DNA of 52,962 bases from an uncultured Bacilli bacterium. Lineage in GTDB: Bacteria; Bacillota_I; Bacilli_A; RF39; UBA660. The translations under genes were made by a program, and so were the position numbers. Under the pieces are notes generated by a model, which ran no database searches, had not been told where the DNA came from, and worked only from the letters and a program-made list of their open reading frames with translations. The DNA is taken from assembly GCA_944372055.1 (NCBI GenBank), contig CALVYF010000006.1, positions 1-52,962 on the forward strand, written 5' to 3'. Below, piece after piece: positions 41,669 to 48,557 of this stretch (within the stretch, counting starts at the first letter, position 1; every line of letters begins with the position of its first letter).

Positions 41669-42565
41669 ATTAAAAAATTTTATACATGCCGCTATGATAG
41701 AGCATTTAAAGAAGTATTCATGAACGAATCAAACAAAGACTTGTTAATTTATTTATTAGAAGGAATTCTAAAACTAAAAATAAATAACGTGGAATATCTC
41801 AATTTAGAACAAAATGTAGGAAATATCTACGTAAAAAGAAAACACTTCGATTTATTTTTAAAAACAGATATTGGAAATATCCAAGTAGAAGTAAATGCTT
41901 CTAATCTAAATTATGTAAAACCAAGAAATATGTCTTATATATGTGCAATATATTCTAACCATGTATTAAAAGGACAAAATTATAATCAAGATACTAAGAT
42001 TATACAAATTAATTTTAGTTATGGACTAGAAGATTCAGAAGAGAAAAGAGTATATTATGTACAAGATCAAAGTAATAAAAAATATGTGGAAAATTTTACC
42101 ATTTATGAAATCAATATGGAAAAATATATAAACTATTGGTATACTAAAAACAAAGAAAAAATAGAAGAAAATAAAGAAATAATTATGCTAGATTTAGAAT
42201 TAGAAGAATTAAAGCTTCTGTCAAAAGAAGATAGGATGGTGAAAAAATATATGAGTGAAATGGAAAAAATCAATAGTAATCCTGAATTTTTTGAATATAT
42301 GAGCGCAGAAGAAGATAATCGAAAGATAGAAAATTCTATTAGAAGAGAAATGATAGAAAGAGGATTAAAAGAGGGTTTAGAGCAAGGACTAGAGCAAGGT
42401 CTGGAACAAGGTCTGGAACAAGGTCTAGAGCAAGGTTTAGAGCGAGGACTAGAACAAGCAAAAATTGATATTGCTCATAATATGCTAAAAGATGGATTAG
42501 ATATTGTTACAATAGCTAAGTATACTGGTTTAGCTAAAGAAACAATCCAAGAAATGTCCAAATAG
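41669..42565 (+). CDS. Rpn family recombination-promoting nuclease / PD-(D/E)XK putative transposase, probable ATT start (41666 or 41669)
   Basis: SD AGGAGGTG (41656-41663) followed by in-frame ATT ATT AAA AAA TTT...; family N-terminal motif YDRAFKEVF lies upstream of the first ATG (41720); FD.....IQVEVN, (GLEQ)n, IAHNML..G...I...TGL. Confidence 0.85.
   Translation: MKKFYTCRYDRAFKEVFMNESNKDLLIYLLEGILKLKINNVEYLNLEQNVGNIYVKRKHFDLFLKTDIGNIQVEVNASNLNYVKPRNMSYICAIYSNHVLKGQNYNQDTKIIQINFSYGLEDSEEKRVYYVQDQSNKKYVENFTIYEINMEKYINYWYTKNKEKIEENKEIIMLDLELEELKLLSKEDRMVKKYMSEMEKINSNPEFFEYMSAEEDNRKIENSIRREMIERGLKEGLEQGLEQGLEQGLEQGLEQGLERGLEQAKIDIAHNMLKDGLDIVTIAKYTGLAKETIQEMSK
42362..42457 (+). repeat. Eight 12-nt repeats encoding (GLEQ)-type tetrapeptides
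   Basis: GGN YTR GAR CAA units; typical Rpn C-terminal variable repeat. Confidence 0.92.
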
Positions 42566-42579
42566 TGATAAAAGAGATT

Positions 42580-42616
42580 AAAAAAATAAAGTAAAATAAG
42601 CTTACTTTATTTTTTT
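42580..42616 (+). terminator. Intrinsic terminator after the Rpn gene
   Basis: AAAAAAATAAAGTAA-aataagc-TTACTTTATTTTTTT. Confidence 0.65.
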
Positions 42617-42658
42617 GTCGATTTTTGTCATACGAAACATTTGTCATGTTTTGTCGAA
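42616..42658 (+). promoter_or_regulatory. Two pairs of tandem Spo0A boxes upstream of the spoIIA-like operon
   Basis: TGTCGAT (42616), TGTCATA (42626), TGTCATG (42642), TGTCGAA (42652, perfect 0A box), each preceded by TT; spacing 10/16/10. Confidence 0.78.
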
Positions 42659-42709
42659 ATGCTAGAAAATATTTTCTATTTGTTTTATAGTGCAAATAGA
42701 GGTGAAGAC

Positions 42710-43048
42710 ATGCTAACAGTATCACGACAAGTAAACAGAGGAATCATATTTATTAGATTGGAGGGAGAACTAACTGCAAATAACTTCTATAAAGTGGCAG
42801 AAGAAATTAACTATTTATTATATAACCAAGGAATTTTAGTTTATGTATTTAACTTAGAAGACGTAAATAAAATAGATAAAGGCATATTGGAAAGTATTCA
42901 AAATAAGTTAACAGAAATCTTTTTAAAATGTGGTAGTGTTGCTATCTGTGGTATATCAACAAAATTAAGAAAAATGTTAGGAGAAAGAAAAAACGAATTA
43001 TTTTATGTAACAGAAGAAAAAGAAGTATTTCAATATATTAGTATTTAA
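42710..43048 (+). CDS. spoIIAA: SpoIIAA-like STAS protein (anti-sigma-F antagonist homologue), phospho-serine motif degenerate
   Basis: ATG 42710 after GAGGTGA; IRLEGELT...FNLEDVNKIDKGI; directly upstream of sigF. Confidence 0.75.
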   Translation: MLTVSRQVNRGIIFIRLEGELTANNFYKVAEEINYLLYNQGILVYVFNLEDVNKIDKGILESIQNKLTEIFLKCGSVAICGISTKLRKMLGERKNELFYVTEEKEVFQYISI

Positions 43049-43059
43049 AAGGAGAGAAT

Positions 43060-43695
43060 ATGGACAGCATATTGGAATATGAAGATATGATTTATAAAAT
43101 GATTGGTAGATACCGAAACTTTGATAAAGAAGACCTATATCAAGTAGCGATGCTTGGTTTAATGAATGCTAAAAAAAATTATAATCCAAATGAAAATACA
43201 AAGTTTTCAACTTATGCTTATTATTATATTTTAGGAGAAATTAATGCTTATATTAGAGCAAGTAATCCTGTAAAGATAAGTAGAGACCTTCTTCGACTGA
43301 ACAAAAGCTTAGAGCATGCAAAAGAAGTGATGGCACAAAGATTAAAAAGGGAACCAACAACAGAAGAGCTATCTATCTTTTTAGAAGTTCCCATAGAAAA
43401 AATAGAAGAAGCAACACTTGCAACTAGACAGGTAGAGAGTCTAGATTACACCTATAGTGATGAAGAAAGTGATTTATATAATTCTTTTGGACAAGAAGAA
43501 ACACAAATGACCGAAGACTTCTTAGATCTAAAAGATGCCATAAAAAATCTCCCAAGAGAAGAACAACAGTTAATTATTGCGAGATATTATACGGGACTAA
43601 CACAACAAGAAACAAGCGAGTCTCTAGGAATATCTCAAGTACAAGTATCAAGAAAAGAATCAAAAATATTACAAAAGCTAAAGACAACTCTATAA
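43060..43695 (+). CDS. sigF: Forespore sigma factor F, N-terminally shortened (211 aa)
   Basis: EDLYQV...GL...KFSTYA...I.GEI...VKISR, REPT..EL, RYY...TQ.E....LGISQVQVSR (QVQ is SigF-type; SigG has QAQ); spoIIAA and spoVA context. Confidence 0.85.
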   Translation: MDSILEYEDMIYKMIGRYRNFDKEDLYQVAMLGLMNAKKNYNPNENTKFSTYAYYYILGEINAYIRASNPVKISRDLLRLNKSLEHAKEVMAQRLKREPTTEELSIFLEVPIEKIEEATLATRQVESLDYTYSDEESDLYNSFGQEETQMTEDFLDLKDAIKNLPREEQQLIIARYYTGLTQQETSESLGISQVQVSRKESKILQKLKTTL

Positions 43696-43710
43696 AATAG
43701 AGTTTTTTTT
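43686..43710 (+). terminator. Intrinsic terminator after sigF
   Basis: AACTCTAT-aaa-ATAGAGTT + T run. Confidence 0.7.
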
Positions 43711-43847: not shown

Positions 43848-45104
43848 ATGTATTGTAGTGAGTGCGGTGCAAAGAATGAAAAAGATGCTCTATTTTGTGA
43901 AGAATGCGGTGCAAAGTTAGAGCAACCAAAAGAGGATAAAACCCCTAAGAAAAAAACATCAAAAAAGAAAAGTACAAAAAAATTAAATAAAAAACAATGG
44001 ATTATAATCGGTATTATGATAGCTGTAGTAGTAATCTTATTTATCGTATTTCAAGTGTTAAAAACACAGACATCACCATCTAAGATTGTAGAAAATTATA
44101 TTGAAGCAATAAATAATAAAGATTATGAAAAGTTATATGATTATGCAAATTATACTGGAGACCAAACATTTATTAGTAAAAAAGCTTATACAGAGGCTGT
44201 AAAAGAAAAATTAGAAGGAAAAAGTACCATTAACAATTTTGTAGTTGGAACAACAACTTATGAAAACGGAGGACTTACAGCAGTAGTCACAGTAAATGCT
44301 GCTATGAGACTAGGAACCAGTACAACAACAGATTCATCATTTGAAATCAAATTAACAAAAGAAAAGGAAAAAGCATTTTTATTCTTTCCAAAATGGACAA
44401 TGGCAGATGATGAGTTATTAGGGATGAACACAACAGAAAATTATAATATTACAGTACCAAAAGATACAGAAATAACTTATGCAGGAGTCAAAGTAACAGA
44501 TAAATATCTTGATAAAAAAGAAAAAGAAGACTATACAGAAACATATATTCTACCACAAGTATTAACGACTTCTACAAATGTAGAATTCAAGTTACCTGGT
44601 GGATTAGAAATAGAAAAAGAGATTACCCCATCAAGTTATAGTAAAAGATATAGCTTAAGTATTACAAGTAGTGATCTTACGGATAAAACCAAAGAAAAAC
44701 TAACAAAAGAAGCAACAGAAACAATGGAGACAACGATGAAGGGAATTATGGATAATAAGAGTTTTGATGACATAAAATCTGTATTAGCTGAAAAACCAGA
44801 TTCTGAATATTATAAAGATTTTGCAGAAGAATATGCAGATTATTTAAAAGATGTTCAAGAAGATAGTAAAAAATTAACATCTTTCGATGTGGAAAGCATG
44901 ACAGTTTCATCCATCGGCTTTACAAGAGATTATGAGTTAAGCTTAAGAGTAAGAATGAGTTATTCTTGGACAGAGACAGAAAATGGTAAAGAAGAAGATG
45001 ATGATAGATATAATTATGTTACTTTCTATATGATTCCAGAAGAAGATAATTATAAAGTAGTAGGTATTTCTTCATTCCCTGCAACAGTTTCTTATTTATG
45101 GTAA
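43848..45104 (+). CDS. Zinc-ribbon membrane protein with large ectodomain (TcaA/YvbJ-like)
   Basis: MYCSECG...FCEECG, basic linker, TM, P...V..Y..A....DY and LFF.KW motifs. Confidence 0.8.
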   Translation: MYCSECGAKNEKDALFCEECGAKLEQPKEDKTPKKKTSKKKSTKKLNKKQWIIIGIMIAVVVILFIVFQVLKTQTSPSKIVENYIEAINNKDYEKLYDYANYTGDQTFISKKAYTEAVKEKLEGKSTINNFVVGTTTYENGGLTAVVTVNAAMRLGTSTTTDSSFEIKLTKEKEKAFLFFPKWTMADDELLGMNTTENYNITVPKDTEITYAGVKVTDKYLDKKEKEDYTETYILPQVLTTSTNVEFKLPGGLEIEKEITPSSYSKRYSLSITSSDLTDKTKEKLTKEATETMETTMKGIMDNKSFDDIKSVLAEKPDSEYYKDFAEEYADYLKDVQEDSKKLTSFDVESMTVSSIGFTRDYELSLRVRMSYSWTETENGKEEDDDRYNYVTFYMIPEEDNYKVVGISSFPATVSYLW

Positions 45105-45119
45105 AGAGAGGAGTAAACA

Positions 45120-45914
45120 ATGGCAAAATTTTGTAACAAATGCGGAAAACCATTAGTAGATGGCAAATGCTCACATTGTGAGCAAACTGAAAAAGAAGTA
45201 GTAGAGGCTACTTCTGAAGAAAATTTATTTATCGAATATCTTAATGTATTAAAAGGAATGTTCACCCATCCAGTTGCAACAATAAAAAAAGAGGCAACAG
45301 CAAAAAATCTTCCATTAGGAATTGTATCAATGGTAATTTGTGCAATATTATTTGGAATTTTCATACATGTATTATTAAGTAATATATTCTCATCTGTAGG
45401 TATGGATTTATCAGTAATCAGTACTATGATGGAACAATTAAATACCCAAATAGCAGCAACAGGATTGTCATTACCATCACTTTCAAATGTAGGAATAAAA
45501 ATGGCAATCATGTTTGCCATAGCATCAGTAATTATGGCAGGATTAATCTACTTAATGCATGCTGTAATATTTAAAAAGAAATTAGATTTTAAGAAAATAA
45601 TTTCTATGATAGGAATAATTGAAGTATCCTTTAGTGTACTTCTTTTAGCAGCAACCATATTATCATTTATTCATTATGTACTAGGTTTAATTATATTGAT
45701 ATTGGCAATAGCCTTCTTATTAGTACACTTACATCAAGGAATTTTAGTAATTTCCACAACAACTAAAACTCAAACAATTTATACAATTGCATTATGTGTA
45801 GGTATTGCGATTATCGCATTTACTTTATCATTAGTAACAGTACTAATATCTAGTATATTAGCACTAAGTCTTCAAACCACTAGTACCTCAATTAGTAGTG
45901 GACTAGGACTATAG
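45120..45914 (+). CDS. Zinc-ribbon, Yip1-like polytopic membrane protein (paralogue 1)
   Basis: MAKFCNKCGKPLVDGKCSHC; ~5 TMs. Confidence 0.78.
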   Translation: MAKFCNKCGKPLVDGKCSHCEQTEKEVVEATSEENLFIEYLNVLKGMFTHPVATIKKEATAKNLPLGIVSMVICAILFGIFIHVLLSNIFSSVGMDLSVISTMMEQLNTQIAATGLSLPSLSNVGIKMAIMFAIASVIMAGLIYLMHAVIFKKKLDFKKIISMIGIIEVSFSVLLLAATILSFIHYVLGLIILILAIAFLLVHLHQGILVISTTTKTQTIYTIALCVGIAIIAFTLSLVTVLISSILALSLQTTSTSISSGLGL

Positions 45915-45927
45915 AAAGGAGTAAACA

Positions 45928-46698
45928 ATGGCAAAGTTTTGTAATAAATGTGGAAAAGCATTAGTCGATGGAATTTGTCCTGATTGTTCTAAAAAAGAAG
46001 AAGTAAAAGAAGAACAAACAACAACAAGCAATTTAGGAAATGACTTATTAGATATTATAAAAAATATTTGGAAAAAGCCTATTGAAACAATAGAAAAATA
46101 TGTAAAAAAAGAAAATCTTCCATTATCATTTATTCTTTTAGGAATTGGTGTATTAGTAGGTGGAATATTCACATACTGTTATACAGATAGCATTGTAACT
46201 GGAATAGTTACACAAATAAATAATAAAATGGCAGGTATTGCTTCTATGATGGGGCAGTCTTATACTGCAACAACACCAATCACAACTATTCCATTTTTCC
46301 AATTGTTCTTATCAGGAATTTTAACTACAGCATTAGCCTATACATTCTTTATTCTTTTATCAAAACTATTTGTAGGAATTATCTTTAAAGGAAAAGCTAG
46401 TCTAAAACAATTTACTACAGCAGTTGCAACTGCTAGTGTATTTCCAACTCTATTTACATTAGTAGGGATTTTAACAAGTTTTATTTCATATCAATTGACA
46501 TCATTCGTTTATTTAATAGGTTTAATATTATTTATTGTAGTAGTTGTACAAAGTTTTATGGATGTATTAAAAGCAAAAGAAGAAAGATTAAGCTATGCAG
46601 TACCATTAACAGTTATTATCACTTATGTAGGTATTATTGTAATTAATATTATTGTTTTAGCCATAATCACATCAAGTCAAGTAACACCAATATATTAA
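45928..46698 (+). CDS. Zinc-ribbon, Yip1-like polytopic membrane protein (paralogue 2)
   Basis: MAKFCNKCGKALVDGICPDC; ~5 TMs. Confidence 0.78.
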   Translation: MAKFCNKCGKALVDGICPDCSKKEEVKEEQTTTSNLGNDLLDIIKNIWKKPIETIEKYVKKENLPLSFILLGIGVLVGGIFTYCYTDSIVTGIVTQINNKMAGIASMMGQSYTATTPITTIPFFQLFLSGILTTALAYTFFILLSKLFVGIIFKGKASLKQFTTAVATASVFPTLFTLVGILTSFISYQLTSFVYLIGLILFIVVVVQSFMDVLKAKEERLSYAVPLTVIITYVGIIVINIIVLAIITSSQVTPIY

Positions 46699-46774: not shown

Positions 46775-47218
46775 ATGAAACAAGAAAAATATGAAATGAT
46801 TGCAAAAGAACATAAAGCAAAGAATCCTAAACTACAAAATGCAATTGTTGCATTTTTAATAGGTGGAGTAATTGGAATGATAGGAGAAGGAATTATAGAA
46901 TTATTATGTAATATTTTTCATATGTCTAGAAATAATGCGGGGACGATTATGATAGTAATTATGATTTTTATAGCATCTCTTTCAACTGCTTTAGGATTTT
47001 TTGACAAATTAGTAACAAAATTTAAATGTGGTCTTTTAATACCAATCACTGGATTCGCTCATTCGATGACAAGTGCTGCACTAGATTATAAAAAAGAAGG
47101 CCCTATTTATGGAGTTGGAGCCAATATTTTTAAATTGGCAGGATCGGTAATTTTATATGGAATCGTGGCTGCATGGTTTTTTGGAATGATTCGTTATCTA
47201 TTAGGAGGTAGAATATGA
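46775..47218 (+). CDS. spoVAC: Stage V sporulation protein AC
   Basis: AFLIGG.I..IG, G..IPITGFA.SM.S.AL, G..GVG.NIFKLAGSVI.YG. Confidence 0.93.
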   Translation: MKQEKYEMIAKEHKAKNPKLQNAIVAFLIGGVIGMIGEGIIELLCNIFHMSRNNAGTIMIVIMIFIASLSTALGFFDKLVTKFKCGLLIPITGFAHSMTSAALDYKKEGPIYGVGANIFKLAGSVILYGIVAAWFFGMIRYLLGGRI

Positions 47219-48207
47219 CATTTACTTATAATGATGTATATGTAAAAGATACCGCAACGATTGCAGGTCCATATGAGAAGAAAGGTCCATTAAAAAAGTA
47301 TTTTGATAAAACTTTTGATGATTTATACTATGATGAGGACTCCTGGGAAAAAGCAGAAATAAAATCAGTAAAAGAAAGTCTAAAGTTATTACATAAGAAA
47401 GTTGGAATCAAAAGAAAAGAAGTAGATGTTATTTTAGGTGGAGATTTATTAAATCAGATAGCAGCGACTACCTATGGGGCATATAATTTTTCTAAATGTT
47501 TTCTAGGACTATATGGAGCTTGTTCCACTTCTGTAGAAGCAATGATACTAGGAAGTGTATTAATTGATGCAAAGAAAGTAAAAAATGCTATTGTAACTGT
47601 TTCCTCACACAATATGGCGGCCGAAAAACAATTCAGAAACCCAACGGAATATGGTGCACCAAAACCAAAAAGTGCTACCTTTACTGCAACAGGTAGTGCT
47701 TCCATGTTACTAACAAAAGAAAAAACAGACATTAAGGTAGAGTCTTCTACCATTGGACAAATTATAGACCTAAATCAAAATAATCCTAACGACATGGGAA
47801 AAGTGATGGCACCAGCTGCGATTGATACGATTAAAAGGCATTTAAAAGATTTAAATAGAAAACCAGACTACTATGATTTGATTGTAACTGGAGATTTGGG
47901 TTTATATGGGAAAGAAATATTAAAAGATTATATGTTAGAGGAATATGATTTAGATTTAAAAGATAATTACAATGACTGTGGAGTTATGCTATATGATTTA
48001 AAAGAACAAGAAGAGTGTCTTGCTGGAGGAAGTGGACCTGTCTGTAGTGCCTTAGTATCCTTTGGATATATCTATCATGAAATGAAAAAGAAAAATCTAA
48101 AAAGAGTACTAATCGTCGCAACAGGAGCCCTATTTTCTCCAACTATGGTTTATCAAAAAGAAAATATTTATTCAATTGCGAATGCAATTAGTTTGGAGGT
48201 AGTCTAA
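47215..48207 (+). CDS. spoVAD: Stage V sporulation protein AD (DPA-binding)
   Basis: GP.E..GPL...FD, SWEKAE, GDLLNQ, GLYGACST, SSH...AE.QFR.P.EYG, TGDLG, GGSG..CS, ATGAL.SP. Confidence 0.96.
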   Translation: MTFTYNDVYVKDTATIAGPYEKKGPLKKYFDKTFDDLYYDEDSWEKAEIKSVKESLKLLHKKVGIKRKEVDVILGGDLLNQIAATTYGAYNFSKCFLGLYGACSTSVEAMILGSVLIDAKKVKNAIVTVSSHNMAAEKQFRNPTEYGAPKPKSATFTATGSASMLLTKEKTDIKVESSTIGQIIDLNQNNPNDMGKVMAPAAIDTIKRHLKDLNRKPDYYDLIVTGDLGLYGKEILKDYMLEEYDLDLKDNYNDCGVMLYDLKEQEECLAGGSGPVCSALVSFGYIYHEMKKKNLKRVLIVATGALFSPTMVYQKENIYSIANAISLEVV

Positions 48208-48557
48208 TGTTACTTGTAAATTCATTTCTATTCTGCGGAATAGTATGTATGATTGCTCAAATTATATTAGATAATACAAAATTAACTCCTGGACATGTAA
48301 CTAGTATGTTTGTAGTATTTGGAGCTGTTTTAGATTCATTTAGTTTTTATGACAAAATTATAAAAGTAGTAGGGGGAGGAGCTTTATTACCAATAACTAG
48401 TTTTGGTCATTCTTTAATTCATGGAGCATTAGCCAAGGCAAACGAATATGGAATTCTAGGAATTCTGATGGGAATGTTTGATTTAACTGCAACAGGTATC
48501 ACAGCAGCAATCATCTTTTCCTTTATATTTACTTTAATATTTAAACCAAAAAACTAA
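48207..48557 (+). CDS. spoVAE: Stage V sporulation protein AE(b)
   Basis: C.IAQ..LD.TKLTPGH....VV.G, GA..PITSFG, FKPK. Confidence 0.93.
   Translation: MLLVNSFLFCGIVCMIAQIILDNTKLTPGHVTSMFVVFGAVLDSFSFYDKIIKVVGGGALLPITSFGHSLIHGALAKANEYGILGILMGMFDLTATGITAAIIFSFIFTLIFKPKN

What the first reader, a model, noticed from the sequence alone, without database searches (positions are those of the whole stretch)
42616..43695. spoIIA operon with no spoIIAB and a non-phosphorylatable SpoIIAA: possible different way of controlling SigF
Seen: the STAS gene ends at 43048 and sigF starts at 43060, leaving no room for spoIIAB. The STAS protein reads KIDKGIL where SpoIIAA has FMDSSGL. The SigF is only 211 aa and lacks the N-terminal segment. 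By my by-eye alignment from memory, the region-3 SpoIIAB contact segment (SIHETV in B. subtilis) reads SLDYTY here. Known: in Bacillus and Clostridium the order is spoIIAA-spoIIAB-sigF(-spoVA), and SpoIIAB both inhibits SigF and phosphorylates SpoIIAA Ser58. Inference: loss of the kinase, its target serine and the contact surface together, while ORFs, Spo0A boxes and spoVAC/D/E remain intact, suggests a stripped-down sporulation programme. Forespore-specific SigF activity would then be set by something else, for example the STAS protein acting directly on SigF.
Basis: partly seen in the sequence, partly recalled or inferred. Interest (0 to 1): 0.85.

Follow-up and report, generated by a model that had tools for sequence, protein, structure and literature searches.

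The report
Sigma-F operon without its partner switch
A small-genome gut bacterium, and the whole uncultured order it belongs to, keeps the first spore-specific sigma factor and a remodelled helper protein but has lost the kinase and the phosphatase that normally switch that sigma factor on in the forespore, so these bacteria must control it some other way.

Summary
A 112-aa STAS protein (42710-43048) is followed 11 nt later by a 211-aa sigma factor (43060-43695), with no spoIIAB between them. No spoIIAB and no second STAS gene were found elsewhere in this 1.35-Mb genome, which is 92.9% complete. The STAS protein aligns without gaps to SpoIIAA, with Lys and Gly where SpoIIAA has Ser57 and Ser58.

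The sigma factor is a SigF orthologue by tree and gene order. SigG, SigE-like and SigK-like genes lie elsewhere.

This is a trait of the order, not of one genome. In 151 sampled genomes, all at least 90% complete, spoIIAB was found in 0, SpoIIE in 0, SigF in 130 and the STAS gene in 116. Four class relatives that keep spoIIAB also keep SpoIIE and the DSSG motif.

The STAS gene is under purifying selection (median dN/dS 0.23). It has lost every residue that canonical SpoIIAA keeps invariant for the phospho-switch, and it was lost at least three times while sigF stayed.

My reading is that the partner switch is gone, SigF is set mainly by Spo0A-driven transcription, and STAS is a dispensable accessory. 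Direct STAS-SigF binding is untested.

A 2024 paper already lists spoIIAB and spoIIE as reduced or absent in the order RF39. I rate this a new variant of a known kind.

The parts
42614..42658 (+). Four phased TTTGTC(G/A)-type boxes (42614-42622, 42624-42632, 42640-42648, 42650-42658), 10-16 nt apart, resembling Spo0A boxes.
   Evidence: Sequence. A TGTC[GA][AT]A box 57-61 nt before the STAS start is found in 25 of 33 relatives' loci with enough upstream DNA. Window-wide the 9-mer is not enriched: 7 matches against 3.7 expected. The 0A-box consensus TGTCGAA is recalled, not taken from a tool.
42663..42691 (+). Promoter-like TAGAAA-17-TATAGT.
   Evidence: One search gives 9 of 12 matches, but the number of such hits in the region is no higher than in shuffles. 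The TATAGT/TATATT element and its position are conserved in the genus alignment. Its function is inferred.
42710..43048 (+). STAS protein of 112 aa, derived from SpoIIAA and without the phospho-switch residues.
   Evidence: family and serine loss; AF2 pLDDT 87.7, best PDB match SpoIIAA 1th8_B, E 2.5e-8, TM 0.70; loss of the canonical invariant columns; dN/dS 0.23.
43060..43695 (+). SigF orthologue of 211 aa, lacking the segment before region 2.
   Evidence: family and best structure match; clade with the SigF of G030, SH-aLRT 98, while SigG forms a separate clade at 100; dN/dS 0.14.
43688..43709 (+). AT-rich hairpin (CTCTAT/ATAGAG) followed by T7, a possible weak terminator of the two-gene operon.
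   Evidence: Read by eye. It does not meet the terminator criteria, which needs at least 3 G-C pairs, so it is weak.
46775..48557 (+). spoVAC, spoVAD and spoVAE. In most relatives these follow sigF directly.
   Evidence: SpoVAC 104.7 bits, SpoVAD 414.9 bits; 116-aa SpoVAE-type ORF, named by likeness to the relatives' ORFs, not scanned; gene order in relatives.

Best explanation
This is the spoIIA locus of a reduced-genome, low-GC (29%) gut bacterium from an uncultured order of class Bacilli. The order is probably the one GTDB calls RF39. That is inferred from record titles and from the published pattern of gene loss, and is not verified.

Shown:
- The ancestral operon spoIIAA-spoIIAB-sigF has become STAS-sigF.
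- No anti-sigma kinase SpoIIAB and no phosphatase SpoIIE were found in any sampled genome of the order.
- The STAS protein has lost every residue that canonical SpoIIAA keeps invariant for the phospho-switch. It keeps its fold and is under purifying selection.
- SigF is intact, and so is the downstream relay (SpoIIR, SpoIIGA, SigE, SigG, SigK).

Inferred:
- SigF is no longer held and released by a partner switch. Its activity is set mainly by when and how much it is made, from a promoter preceded by four phased Spo0A-like boxes.
- The STAS protein has a phosphorylation-independent accessory role. That role is probably still linked to SigF, because the two genes are adjacent and apparently co-transcribed. 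It is dispensable, since several sister lineages dropped STAS and kept sigF.
For: Absence in the own genome.

Order sample of 151 genomes, all at least 90% complete, 87 genera:
- spoIIAB in 0 of 151 at E<=1e-15.
- SpoIIE in 0 of 151 at E<=1e-8.
- SigF-like in 130 of 151.
- STAS in 116 of 151. By my cross-reading of the two lists, 111-112 of the 130 SigF genomes keep STAS.
- In the ten top STAS rows that I compared by eye, the STAS match lies 8-45 nt upstream of sigF in 10 of 10.

Contrast in the class. In the class sample of 41 genomes, spoIIAB is over its cut-off in 4 (G029, G030, G033, G038), each time next to sigF. The same four have SpoIIE-like genes at E<=5e-37 and an FMDSSG motif.

Public loci. 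Of 80 loci, 57 of 57 outside the clade carry spoIIAB next to sigF and 23 of 23 inside it do not.

Loss of the switch surface (weighted conservation, canonical against clade): D22 1.00 to 0.48, F54 1.00 to 0.33, S57 1.00 to 0.25, S58 0.86 to 0.47, G59 1.00 to 0.35, G61 0.91 to 0.42, and S93/G94 0.79/0.90 to 0.29/0.31.

STAS is still constrained:
- NG86 dN/dS has a median of 0.23 over 105 genus pairs.
- STAS diverges 1.0-1.5 times as fast as sigF in the clade, against 1.0-2.3 times for canonical pairs.
- The AF2 model has pLDDT 87.7 and its best PDB match is SpoIIAA.

Cascade present:
- Spo0A 280 bits, over its cut-off.
- SpoIIR 139.9 bits.
- SpoIIGA 106.6 bits, next to sigE.
- SigG 383.9 bits, over its cut-off; SigE-like 312 bits; SigK-like 294 bits.
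- SpoIVA 685 bits and SASP 67 bits.

Promoter boxes are conserved in position in 25 of 33 loci.

STAS is dispensable. Nine of the 23 clade loci have sigF without STAS, in three separate places on the tree.

Weak hint of expression. Contigs from RNA libraries, 95-99% alike, cover the STAS gene in 4 of 4 runs from 3 studies. One 539-nt contig spans the STAS-sigF junction. DNA in those libraries cannot be excluded.
Against: - No member of the order is cultured, so spore formation itself is unproven. One classifier paper gave RF39 MAGs a 0% probability of sporulation (PMC12536801, passage read); spoIIAB was one of nine genes present in all 63 MAGs it predicted to sporulate.
- Purifying selection on STAS, and its retention in about 86% of SigF-bearing genomes, fit an important role better than a merely accessory one.
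- In B. subtilis, as I recall, loss of spoIIAB gives harmful, unrestrained SigF. A replacement brake would therefore be expected, and none was looked for systematically.
- The 0A-like boxes are a recalled consensus, and the promoter scan is not above chance.
- All genomes are MAGs. A gene that is systematically hard to assemble could be missed, though that is implausible here because the STAS-sigF junction is contiguous in every locus.
- dS estimates in a 29% GC genome are rough.
Confidence: 0.55

Rival explanations
1. The STAS protein has become the main regulator of SigF by binding it directly, as an inhibitor or holder, without phosphorylation. This would be a two-protein STAS-sigma module that replaces the three-protein partner switch. 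It is the first reader's proposal.
For: - The two genes are adjacent and co-oriented, with an 11-nt gap, in nearly all genomes that have both.
- STAS is under purifying selection and is no more relaxed relative to sigF than canonical SpoIIAA is.
- The old interaction surface is free to vary, while the hairpin K/R10-G11-I12-x-F14-x-R16 and the C-terminal helix are more conserved than in canonical SpoIIAA. The clade sample is shallower, so that second point is weak.
Against: - STAS was lost at least three times while sigF stayed.
- SigF shows no consistent change on those losses: 3 of 65 conserved columns change in two of the three loss groups, and none changes in all three.
- I know of no STAS protein that binds a sigma factor directly. 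This is from recall; the searches found none.
Confidence: 0.22
2. An unrecognised anti-SigF factor, not homologous to SpoIIAB, exists elsewhere in the genome. The STAS protein antagonises it through a signal other than serine phosphorylation, for example redox state or a ligand.
For: - STAS is retained and its conserved surface has shifted.
- Recalled precedent: mycobacterial RsfA, an antagonist of the anti-SigF factor UsfX, is regulated without phosphorylation.
- The UsfX-RsfB complex 8ih8_A has the highest TM-score (0.79) among the single-domain STAS chains in the fold search.
Against: - No candidate was found. The gene after sigF (a Zn-ribbon membrane protein, 43848-45104) is present only in this species and one other locus.
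- There is no HATPase_c_2 protein.
- No conserved neighbour other than spoVA was seen.
- The search for a partner was not systematic.
Confidence: 0.13
3. The sporulation programme is decaying in this lineage, and STAS-sigF is a relic on its way out.
For: - Genomes are reduced (0.6-2.1 Mb).
- 21 of 151 genomes of the order have lost sigF.
- Some STAS copies carry in-frame stops: G073, G065, G045 and G124.
Against: - dN/dS is 0.14 for sigF and 0.23 for STAS.
- The pair is kept across 69 or more genera.
- SpoIVA at 685 bits, SigG over its cut-off, Spo0A over its cut-off, and intact spoVA.
- RNA-library contigs cover the locus.
Confidence: 0.07
4. Assembly or binning artefact: spoIIAB and spoIIE exist but were missed.
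For: The genome is a 63-contig MAG, 92.9% complete.
Against: - The STAS-sigF junction is contiguous sequence in the window.
- Both genes were found in 0 of 151 genomes at least 90% complete, some in 4-10 contigs.
- The control genomes and the class relatives are detected by the same searches.
Confidence: 0.02

Closest known systems
B. subtilis spoIIA operon with SpoIIE (the SpoIIAA-SpoIIAB-SigF partner switch)
   Same: Orthologous STAS and sigma genes in the same order, with spoVA downstream. Spo0A-type boxes lie upstream. The downstream SpoIIR-SpoIIGA-SigE relay is present.
   Different: There is no SpoIIAB, no SpoIIE and no phosphorylatable serine, and the invariant SpoIIAA switch residues are not conserved. 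SigF lacks the segment before region 2.
Order RF39 as described in PMC10868615 (Microb Genom 2024; passages read)
   Same: [quoted passage not shown] That matches this genome's pattern.
   Different: The paper works at the level of KEGG-orthologue presence and absence. The passages I read say nothing about a retained, serine-less SpoIIAA, its selection, its repeated loss, or the promoter. That this genome belongs to RF39 is my inference.
RsbV-RsbW-SigB and other STAS/HATPase_c_2/PP2C partner-switching modules
   Same: The STAS fold; 6m36 RsbV is among the top structural matches.
   Different: Only one of the three module components is present.
Mycobacterial RsfA/RsfB-UsfX-SigF (8ih8)
   Same: A STAS antagonist that, as I recall for RsfA, works without phosphorylation. 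8ih8_A has the highest TM-score, 0.79, among the single-domain STAS chains listed.
   Different: An anti-sigma factor (UsfX) is still present there. None was found here.
Vibrio fischeri SypA (PMC4517449; abstract start seen in the listing)
   Same: A single-domain STAS protein whose downstream target is not an anti-sigma factor and is unknown.
   Different: SypA is still controlled by a serine kinase/phosphatase (SypE) and is not linked to a sigma gene.

Membership tests
SpoIIAA (anti-sigma F factor antagonist, TIGR02886) | STAS fold | tested here: met
   Pfam STAS gives 31.9 bits against a cut-off of 22.6. The AF2 model has pLDDT 87.7 and its best PDB match is SpoIIAA 1th8_B, E 2.5e-8, TM 0.70.
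SpoIIAA (anti-sigma F factor antagonist, TIGR02886) | Score over the curated equivalog cut-off | tested here: not met
   31.6 bits against a cut-off of 114.75.
SpoIIAA (anti-sigma F factor antagonist, TIGR02886) | Phosphorylatable serine in the D-S-S-G loop | tested here: not met
   IDKGIL aligns to MDSSGL. The column is variable across 34 clade sequences.
SpoIIAA (anti-sigma F factor antagonist, TIGR02886) | Cognate SpoIIAB kinase/anti-sigma factor and SpoIIE phosphatase in the genome | tested here: not met
   for the own genome; 0 of 151 for each gene in the order.
SpoIIAA (anti-sigma F factor antagonist, TIGR02886) | Descent from spoIIAA: position directly upstream of sigF, and best sequence and structure matches | tested here: met
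   Orthology is inferred from gene order and best matches; no STAS tree was built.
Sporulation sigma factor SigF (TIGR02885) | Sigma-70 regions 2, 3 and 4 | tested here: met
   Pfam r2 38.8, r3 41.6 and r4 50.2 bits, all over their cut-offs.
Sporulation sigma factor SigF (TIGR02885) | Score over the curated cut-offs | tested here: not met
   spore_sigF gives 153.9 bits against 321.45, and SigBFG gives 171.5 against 234.35. Class relatives that keep spoIIAB score similarly low on SigBFG, at 165-200 bits, so the low score is a trait of the wider group.
Sporulation sigma factor SigF (TIGR02885) | Groups with SigF rather than SigG or SigB | tested here: met
   In a tree of 66 rows the clade joins the SigF of G030 at SH-aLRT 98; SigG is a separate clade at 100 and SigB lies outside. 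It is a quick tree, and the long branch L034 nests inside the clade.
Sporulation sigma factor SigF (TIGR02885) | Separate SigG, SigE and SigK present, and the SigF-dependent relay gene spoIIR present | tested here: met
Sporulation sigma factor SigF (TIGR02885) | Forespore-specific activity and the SigF regulon | not testable with these tools
   This needs experiments or stage-resolved transcriptomes.
Partner-switching module (STAS + HATPase_c_2 kinase + PP2C phosphatase) | All three components present | tested here: not met
   Only STAS is present. The one PP2C gene (247 aa) sits next to an rlmN-like ORF. Both names are mine (rlmN from recalled motifs, PP2C from a 16-bit hit); neither ORF was scanned against a family library. 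The only HATPase domains lie in four HisKA histidine kinases.

The most novel reading that the evidence does not exclude
In this order the SpoIIAA-derived STAS protein acts directly on SigF, holding or delivering it without any kinase, phosphatase or anti-sigma factor. Cell-specific activation of the first forespore sigma factor would then be achieved by a two-protein module of a kind not described before. It would follow that the SpoIIE-SpoIIAA-SpoIIAB switch, treated as core to endospore formation, is replaceable.
Probability: 0.2. Interest if true: 0.85.

Novelty: new variant of a known kind. Interest (0 to 1): 0.62.

Why it matters
The SpoIIE-SpoIIAA-SpoIIAB switch is the textbook answer to how asymmetric division turns on the first cell-specific sigma factor. 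[quoted passage not shown]

Here a whole order of likely spore-formers keeps SigF and the rest of the cascade without that switch. It is a natural experiment on what is minimally needed to activate SigF, and on what a STAS domain can do once it is freed from its kinase.

There is also a practical side. Tools that predict sporulation from gene content, spoIIAB among the genes, may misclassify these common gut bacteria (PMC12536801).

Tried and rejected
1. Complex prediction of SigF (alignment A4) with STAS (alignment A3). The verdict was 'no answer', with a score of 0.02 against a mark of 0.32, and the controls were not run. This is neither for nor against binding.

2. Downstream Zn-ribbon membrane protein (43848-45104) as a replacement membrane anti-sigma factor. 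Rejected as a conserved partner. It and its two paralogues lie between sigF and spoVAC only in this species and in locus L038. Most relatives go straight from sigF to spoVAC.

3. Weak tblastn hit of a relative's SpoIIAB N-terminus to a 250-aa ORF on contig C51 (E 0.005). The ORF has no Pfam or NCBIfam family. I treat it as chance.

4. The 247-aa PP2C hit. It sits next to an rlmN-like ORF (named from recalled motifs, not scanned), so I take it for the common Stp/PrpC type and not for SpoIIE.

5. SigF columns that change whenever STAS is lost. No consistent signal.

6. Regional relaxation of SigF after spoIIAB loss. None was seen; only 8 scattered columns differ.

7. Reads and contigs. None of the four RNA-library runs gave contigs over 42000-42670, upstream of the STAS gene. 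Runs with small shares were not used for habitat.

8. A look upstream of spoIIR for a SigF-type promoter. I could not match it with confidence to a consensus that I only recall, so I dropped it.

10. Searches for prior description were. Only PMC10868615 mentions the gene loss. Nothing was found on a serine-less SpoIIAA kept without SpoIIAB. Supplements of the papers were closed and may bear on this.

11. Rows left out of the tree. I used 6 of the 15 genus loci, all 27 other clade loci, 22 of the 61 canonical SigF loci, 6 SigG, 1 SigB, 2 FliA/SigD and 2 SigA.
Full report
WHAT IS THERE

The window is contig C6 of a 1.35-Mb assembly of 63 contigs. It is 92.9% complete, 1.24% contaminated and 29.4% G+C.

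At the finding, a STAS ORF ends at 43048 and a sigma-factor ORF runs from 43060 to 43695. The first possible start of the STAS ORF is TTG 42641. ATG 42710 follows AGAGGTGA, and all 33 aligned relatives start with ML at that point. I therefore take the protein to be 112 aa.

Pfam calls the first protein STAS (31.9 bits, cut-off 22.6) and finds sigma regions 2, 3 and 4 in the second. NCBIfam ranks SigB/F/G (171.5 bits) and spore_sigF (153.9 bits) first for the sigma, both under their cut-offs. It gives spore_II_AA only 31.6 bits for the STAS protein, against a cut-off of 114.75.

Against solved structures the STAS protein aligns without gaps to SpoIIAA (1th8_B, E 4.5e-5). IDKGIL lies opposite MDSSGL, so Ser57 is Lys and Ser58 is Gly. 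The best match of the sigma is SigF of G. stearothermophilus (1l0o_C, E 3.7e-28), starting at its residue 39. An AF2 model of the STAS protein is confident (pLDDT 87.7), and its best structural match is again SpoIIAA (E 2.5e-8, TM 0.70).

IS SPOIIAB REALLY ABSENT?

In the own genome, TIGR01925 matches only four long ORFs of 419-789 aa. All four are classical HisKA+HATPase_c histidine kinases. An HMM that I built from the SpoIIAB proteins of four class relatives finds the same four ORFs and nothing else. PF13581 gives nothing over its cut-off.

PF07228 (SpoIIE) gives no match. The only PP2C gene encodes 247 aa and sits beside an rlmN-like ORF (named from recalled motifs, not scanned), which is the common Stp/PrpC arrangement. 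The window's STAS is the only one in the genome over the Pfam cut-off.

IT IS A TRAIT OF THE WHOLE ORDER

In a first sample of 41 genomes, the SigF-like gene is present as follows:
- 20 of 20 other species of the genus, at 69-99% identity.
- 4 of 4 other genera of the family, at 39-43% identity.
- The one genome of a second family of the order, at 34% identity.

In that sample spoIIAB is over its cut-off in only 4 of 41 genomes. All four belong to other families of the class, and in each the gene lies next to sigF. The same four have SpoIIE-like genes at E 5e-37 to 5e-123, and their STAS proteins read FMDSSG.

In a sample of 151 genomes of the order (87 genera, all at least 90% complete):
- spoIIAB was found in 0.
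- SpoIIE was found in 0.
- SigF was found in 130.
- STAS was found in 116.

Cross-reading the two lists, 111-112 of the 130 SigF-bearing genomes keep STAS. One genome without SigF and 15 without STAS are not listed by name, so the figure is approximate. Four genomes have a STAS match but no SigF, and some of those copies carry stops.

In the ten best STAS rows that I compared, the STAS match ends 8-45 nt before sigF in all ten.

Among 80 public loci found with a SigF alignment, 57 of 57 outside the clade have spoIIAB beside sigF. None of the 23 inside the clade has it. Those 23 are MAGs titled Tenericutes, Mollicutes, Bacilli or Erysipelotrichaceae. Of them, 14 have STAS-sigF and 9 have sigF alone.

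IS THE SIGMA FACTOR SIGF?

The genome has separate SigG, SigE-like, SigK-like, SigH-like and SigA genes:
- SigG scores 383.9 bits, over its cut-off of 372.
- SigE-like scores 312 bits and lies next to a SpoIIGA-like gene.
- SigK-like scores 294 bits.

In a tree of 66 sigma factors, the spoIIAB-less sigmas form one group with the canonical SigF of G030, a 0.9-Mb class relative that keeps spoIIAA-spoIIAB-sigF and SpoIIE (SH-aLRT 98). SigG is a separate clade (100), and SigB, FliA and SigA lie outside. One very long branch (L034) nests inside the group, and its place is unsure.

Together with the gene order (STAS upstream, spoVAC/D/E downstream), this makes the protein a SigF orthologue.

Its low family score is not special to the loss. 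The SigF of relatives that keep spoIIAB scores 165-200 bits on the same SigBFG model, against 171.5 bits here.

WHAT HAPPENED TO THE STAS PROTEIN?

I compared 34 clade STAS sequences with 58 canonical SpoIIAA sequences, using sequence weighting. The columns that canonical SpoIIAA keeps invariant or nearly so are free to vary in the clade. Weighted conservation falls as follows:
- D22: 1.00 to 0.48.
- F54: 1.00 to 0.33.
- S57: 1.00 to 0.25.
- S58: 0.86 to 0.47.
- G59: 1.00 to 0.35.
- G61: 0.91 to 0.42.
- G65 and R66: 0.89 each, to 0.44 and 0.52.
- S93 and G94: 0.79 and 0.90, to 0.29 and 0.31.

The gene is nevertheless not decaying:
- Pairwise NG86 dN/dS within the genus has a median of 0.23 over 105 pairs. 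For sigF it is 0.14 over 104 pairs.
- Relative to SigF divergence, STAS changes no faster (ratio 1.0-1.5) than canonical SpoIIAA does (1.0-2.3).

Some positions are more conserved in the clade than in canonical proteins: the start ML, G11-I12, F14, R16, C80-G81 and the last helix. The clade sample is shallower, so I give that little weight.

SigF shows no comparable shift. Only 8 scattered columns are relaxed, and region 3 is poorly conserved in both sets. But relatives that keep spoIIAB share the S-[LM]-D motif, so it does not mark a lost contact surface.

CONTEXT

Spo0A (280 bits, over its cut-off), SpoIIR (139.9 bits), SpoIIGA (106.6 bits), SpoIVA (685 bits), a SASP gene (67 bits) and spoVAC/D/E are all present.

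Upstream of STAS lie four phased TTTGTC(G/A) boxes (42614-42658), then TAGAAA-17-TATAGT and a strong ribosome site. A box 57-61 nt before the start codon recurs in 25 of 33 relatives' loci. The 9-mer is not enriched in the window as a whole, and the promoter scan alone is not above chance. The Spo0A-box consensus is from my memory.

DNA runs labelled chicken gut metagenome hold the stretch. Some come from a study other than the possible source. Contigs from four RNA libraries of three studies, 95-99% alike, cover the STAS gene in all four runs, and one contig bridges into sigF. That is a weak hint of transcription, because DNA may be present in such libraries.

HOW IT MOST LIKELY WORKS

Shown: the partner switch is gone. 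The kinase/anti-sigma factor, the phosphatase, the target serine and the conserved switch surface are all missing, while SigF and its downstream relay persist under selection.

Inferred: SigF is controlled chiefly by Spo0A-dependent synthesis. The STAS protein has a phosphorylation-independent accessory role. It is kept in about 86% of SigF-bearing genomes, yet it was dropped at least three separate times with sigF retained. That argues against it being the indispensable SigF regulator.

Rivals:
- An unrecognised anti-sigma factor that STAS antagonises (about 0.13).
- Decay of the programme (about 0.07).
- An assembly artefact (about 0.02).

COMPARISON WITH WHAT IS KNOWN

[quoted passage not shown] It predicts spores with different regulation (PMC10868615, passages read; supplements closed). 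This genome fits that pattern. The record titles of its relatives (Tenericutes, Mollicutes) fit as well, but I could not verify the order's name.

The loss of the two genes is therefore already in print at the level of presence and absence. In five searches I found nothing on the following points:
- A SpoIIAA descendant is kept next to sigF across most of the order.
- It has shed the whole phospho-switch surface yet remains under purifying selection.
- It has been lost repeatedly.
- The promoter boxes are conserved.

VERDICT

I rate it a new variant of a known kind, with interest 0.62. It is surprising to sporulation specialists and testable by heterologous expression. The interest is tempered by prior mention of the gene loss and by the lack of cultured members.

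Noticed in passing
window 41720-42565: A PD-(D/E)XK_2 transposase-family ORF (Pfam 46.9 bits) with a (GLEQ)n repeat near its C-terminus lies directly upstream of the STAS promoter. Similar ORFs sit near sigF in L039 and L046, so it looks like a mobile or recurrent insertion.
   Followed up: partly
window 43848-46698: Three consecutive genes for membrane proteins with an N-terminal zinc ribbon (418, 264 and 256 aa; a TcaA-like N-terminus at 53.7 bits, a weak Yip1 hit) lie between sigF and spoVAC. They are found only here and in L038. Most relatives have sigF directly followed by spoVAC.
   Followed up: partly
L030 (G021) 1713-2879: In one sister genus a 388-aa ORF is inserted between STAS and sigF. 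Its N-terminus looks like S-adenosylmethionine synthetase; that is from recall and was not tested.
   Followed up: no
L028, L052, L053, L054, L056, L057, L059, L060, L072, upstream of STAS or sigF: A family of 360-626-aa proteins with a signal peptide recurs immediately upstream of the STAS-sigF or sigF gene in many lineages of the order. A typical start is MKK...AKTYYTEYSNFS. Its function is unknown.
   Followed up: no
G073:C21:1-309, G065:C15:10338-10637, G045:C44:2531-2779, G124:C4:19157-19477: STAS matches with in-frame stop codons. In G073 and G065 they occur in genomes with no SigF match, which looks like sporulation loss in progress within the order.
   Followed up: no
G030 (L032, L023): A class relative with a genome of only about 0.9 Mb keeps the full spoIIAA-spoIIAB-sigF operon and a full-length SpoIIE-like gene (408.9 bits). 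Genome reduction alone therefore does not explain the loss.
   Followed up: partly
G000 contig C62 5915-6742 (L140): An extra, divergent sigma-70-family ORF of 271 aa (sigma70-ECF superfamily, 65 bits) lies on a separate 22-kb contig. It may belong to a phage or mobile element.
   Followed up: no
window 42710-43048, residues 74 and 80: A C-G-x-V-x-x-C-G motif. Cys80 aligns with the Cys of canonical SpoIIAA. Cys74 is confined to this genus and its near relatives. Whether the pair could form a redox switch was not examined.
   Followed up: no
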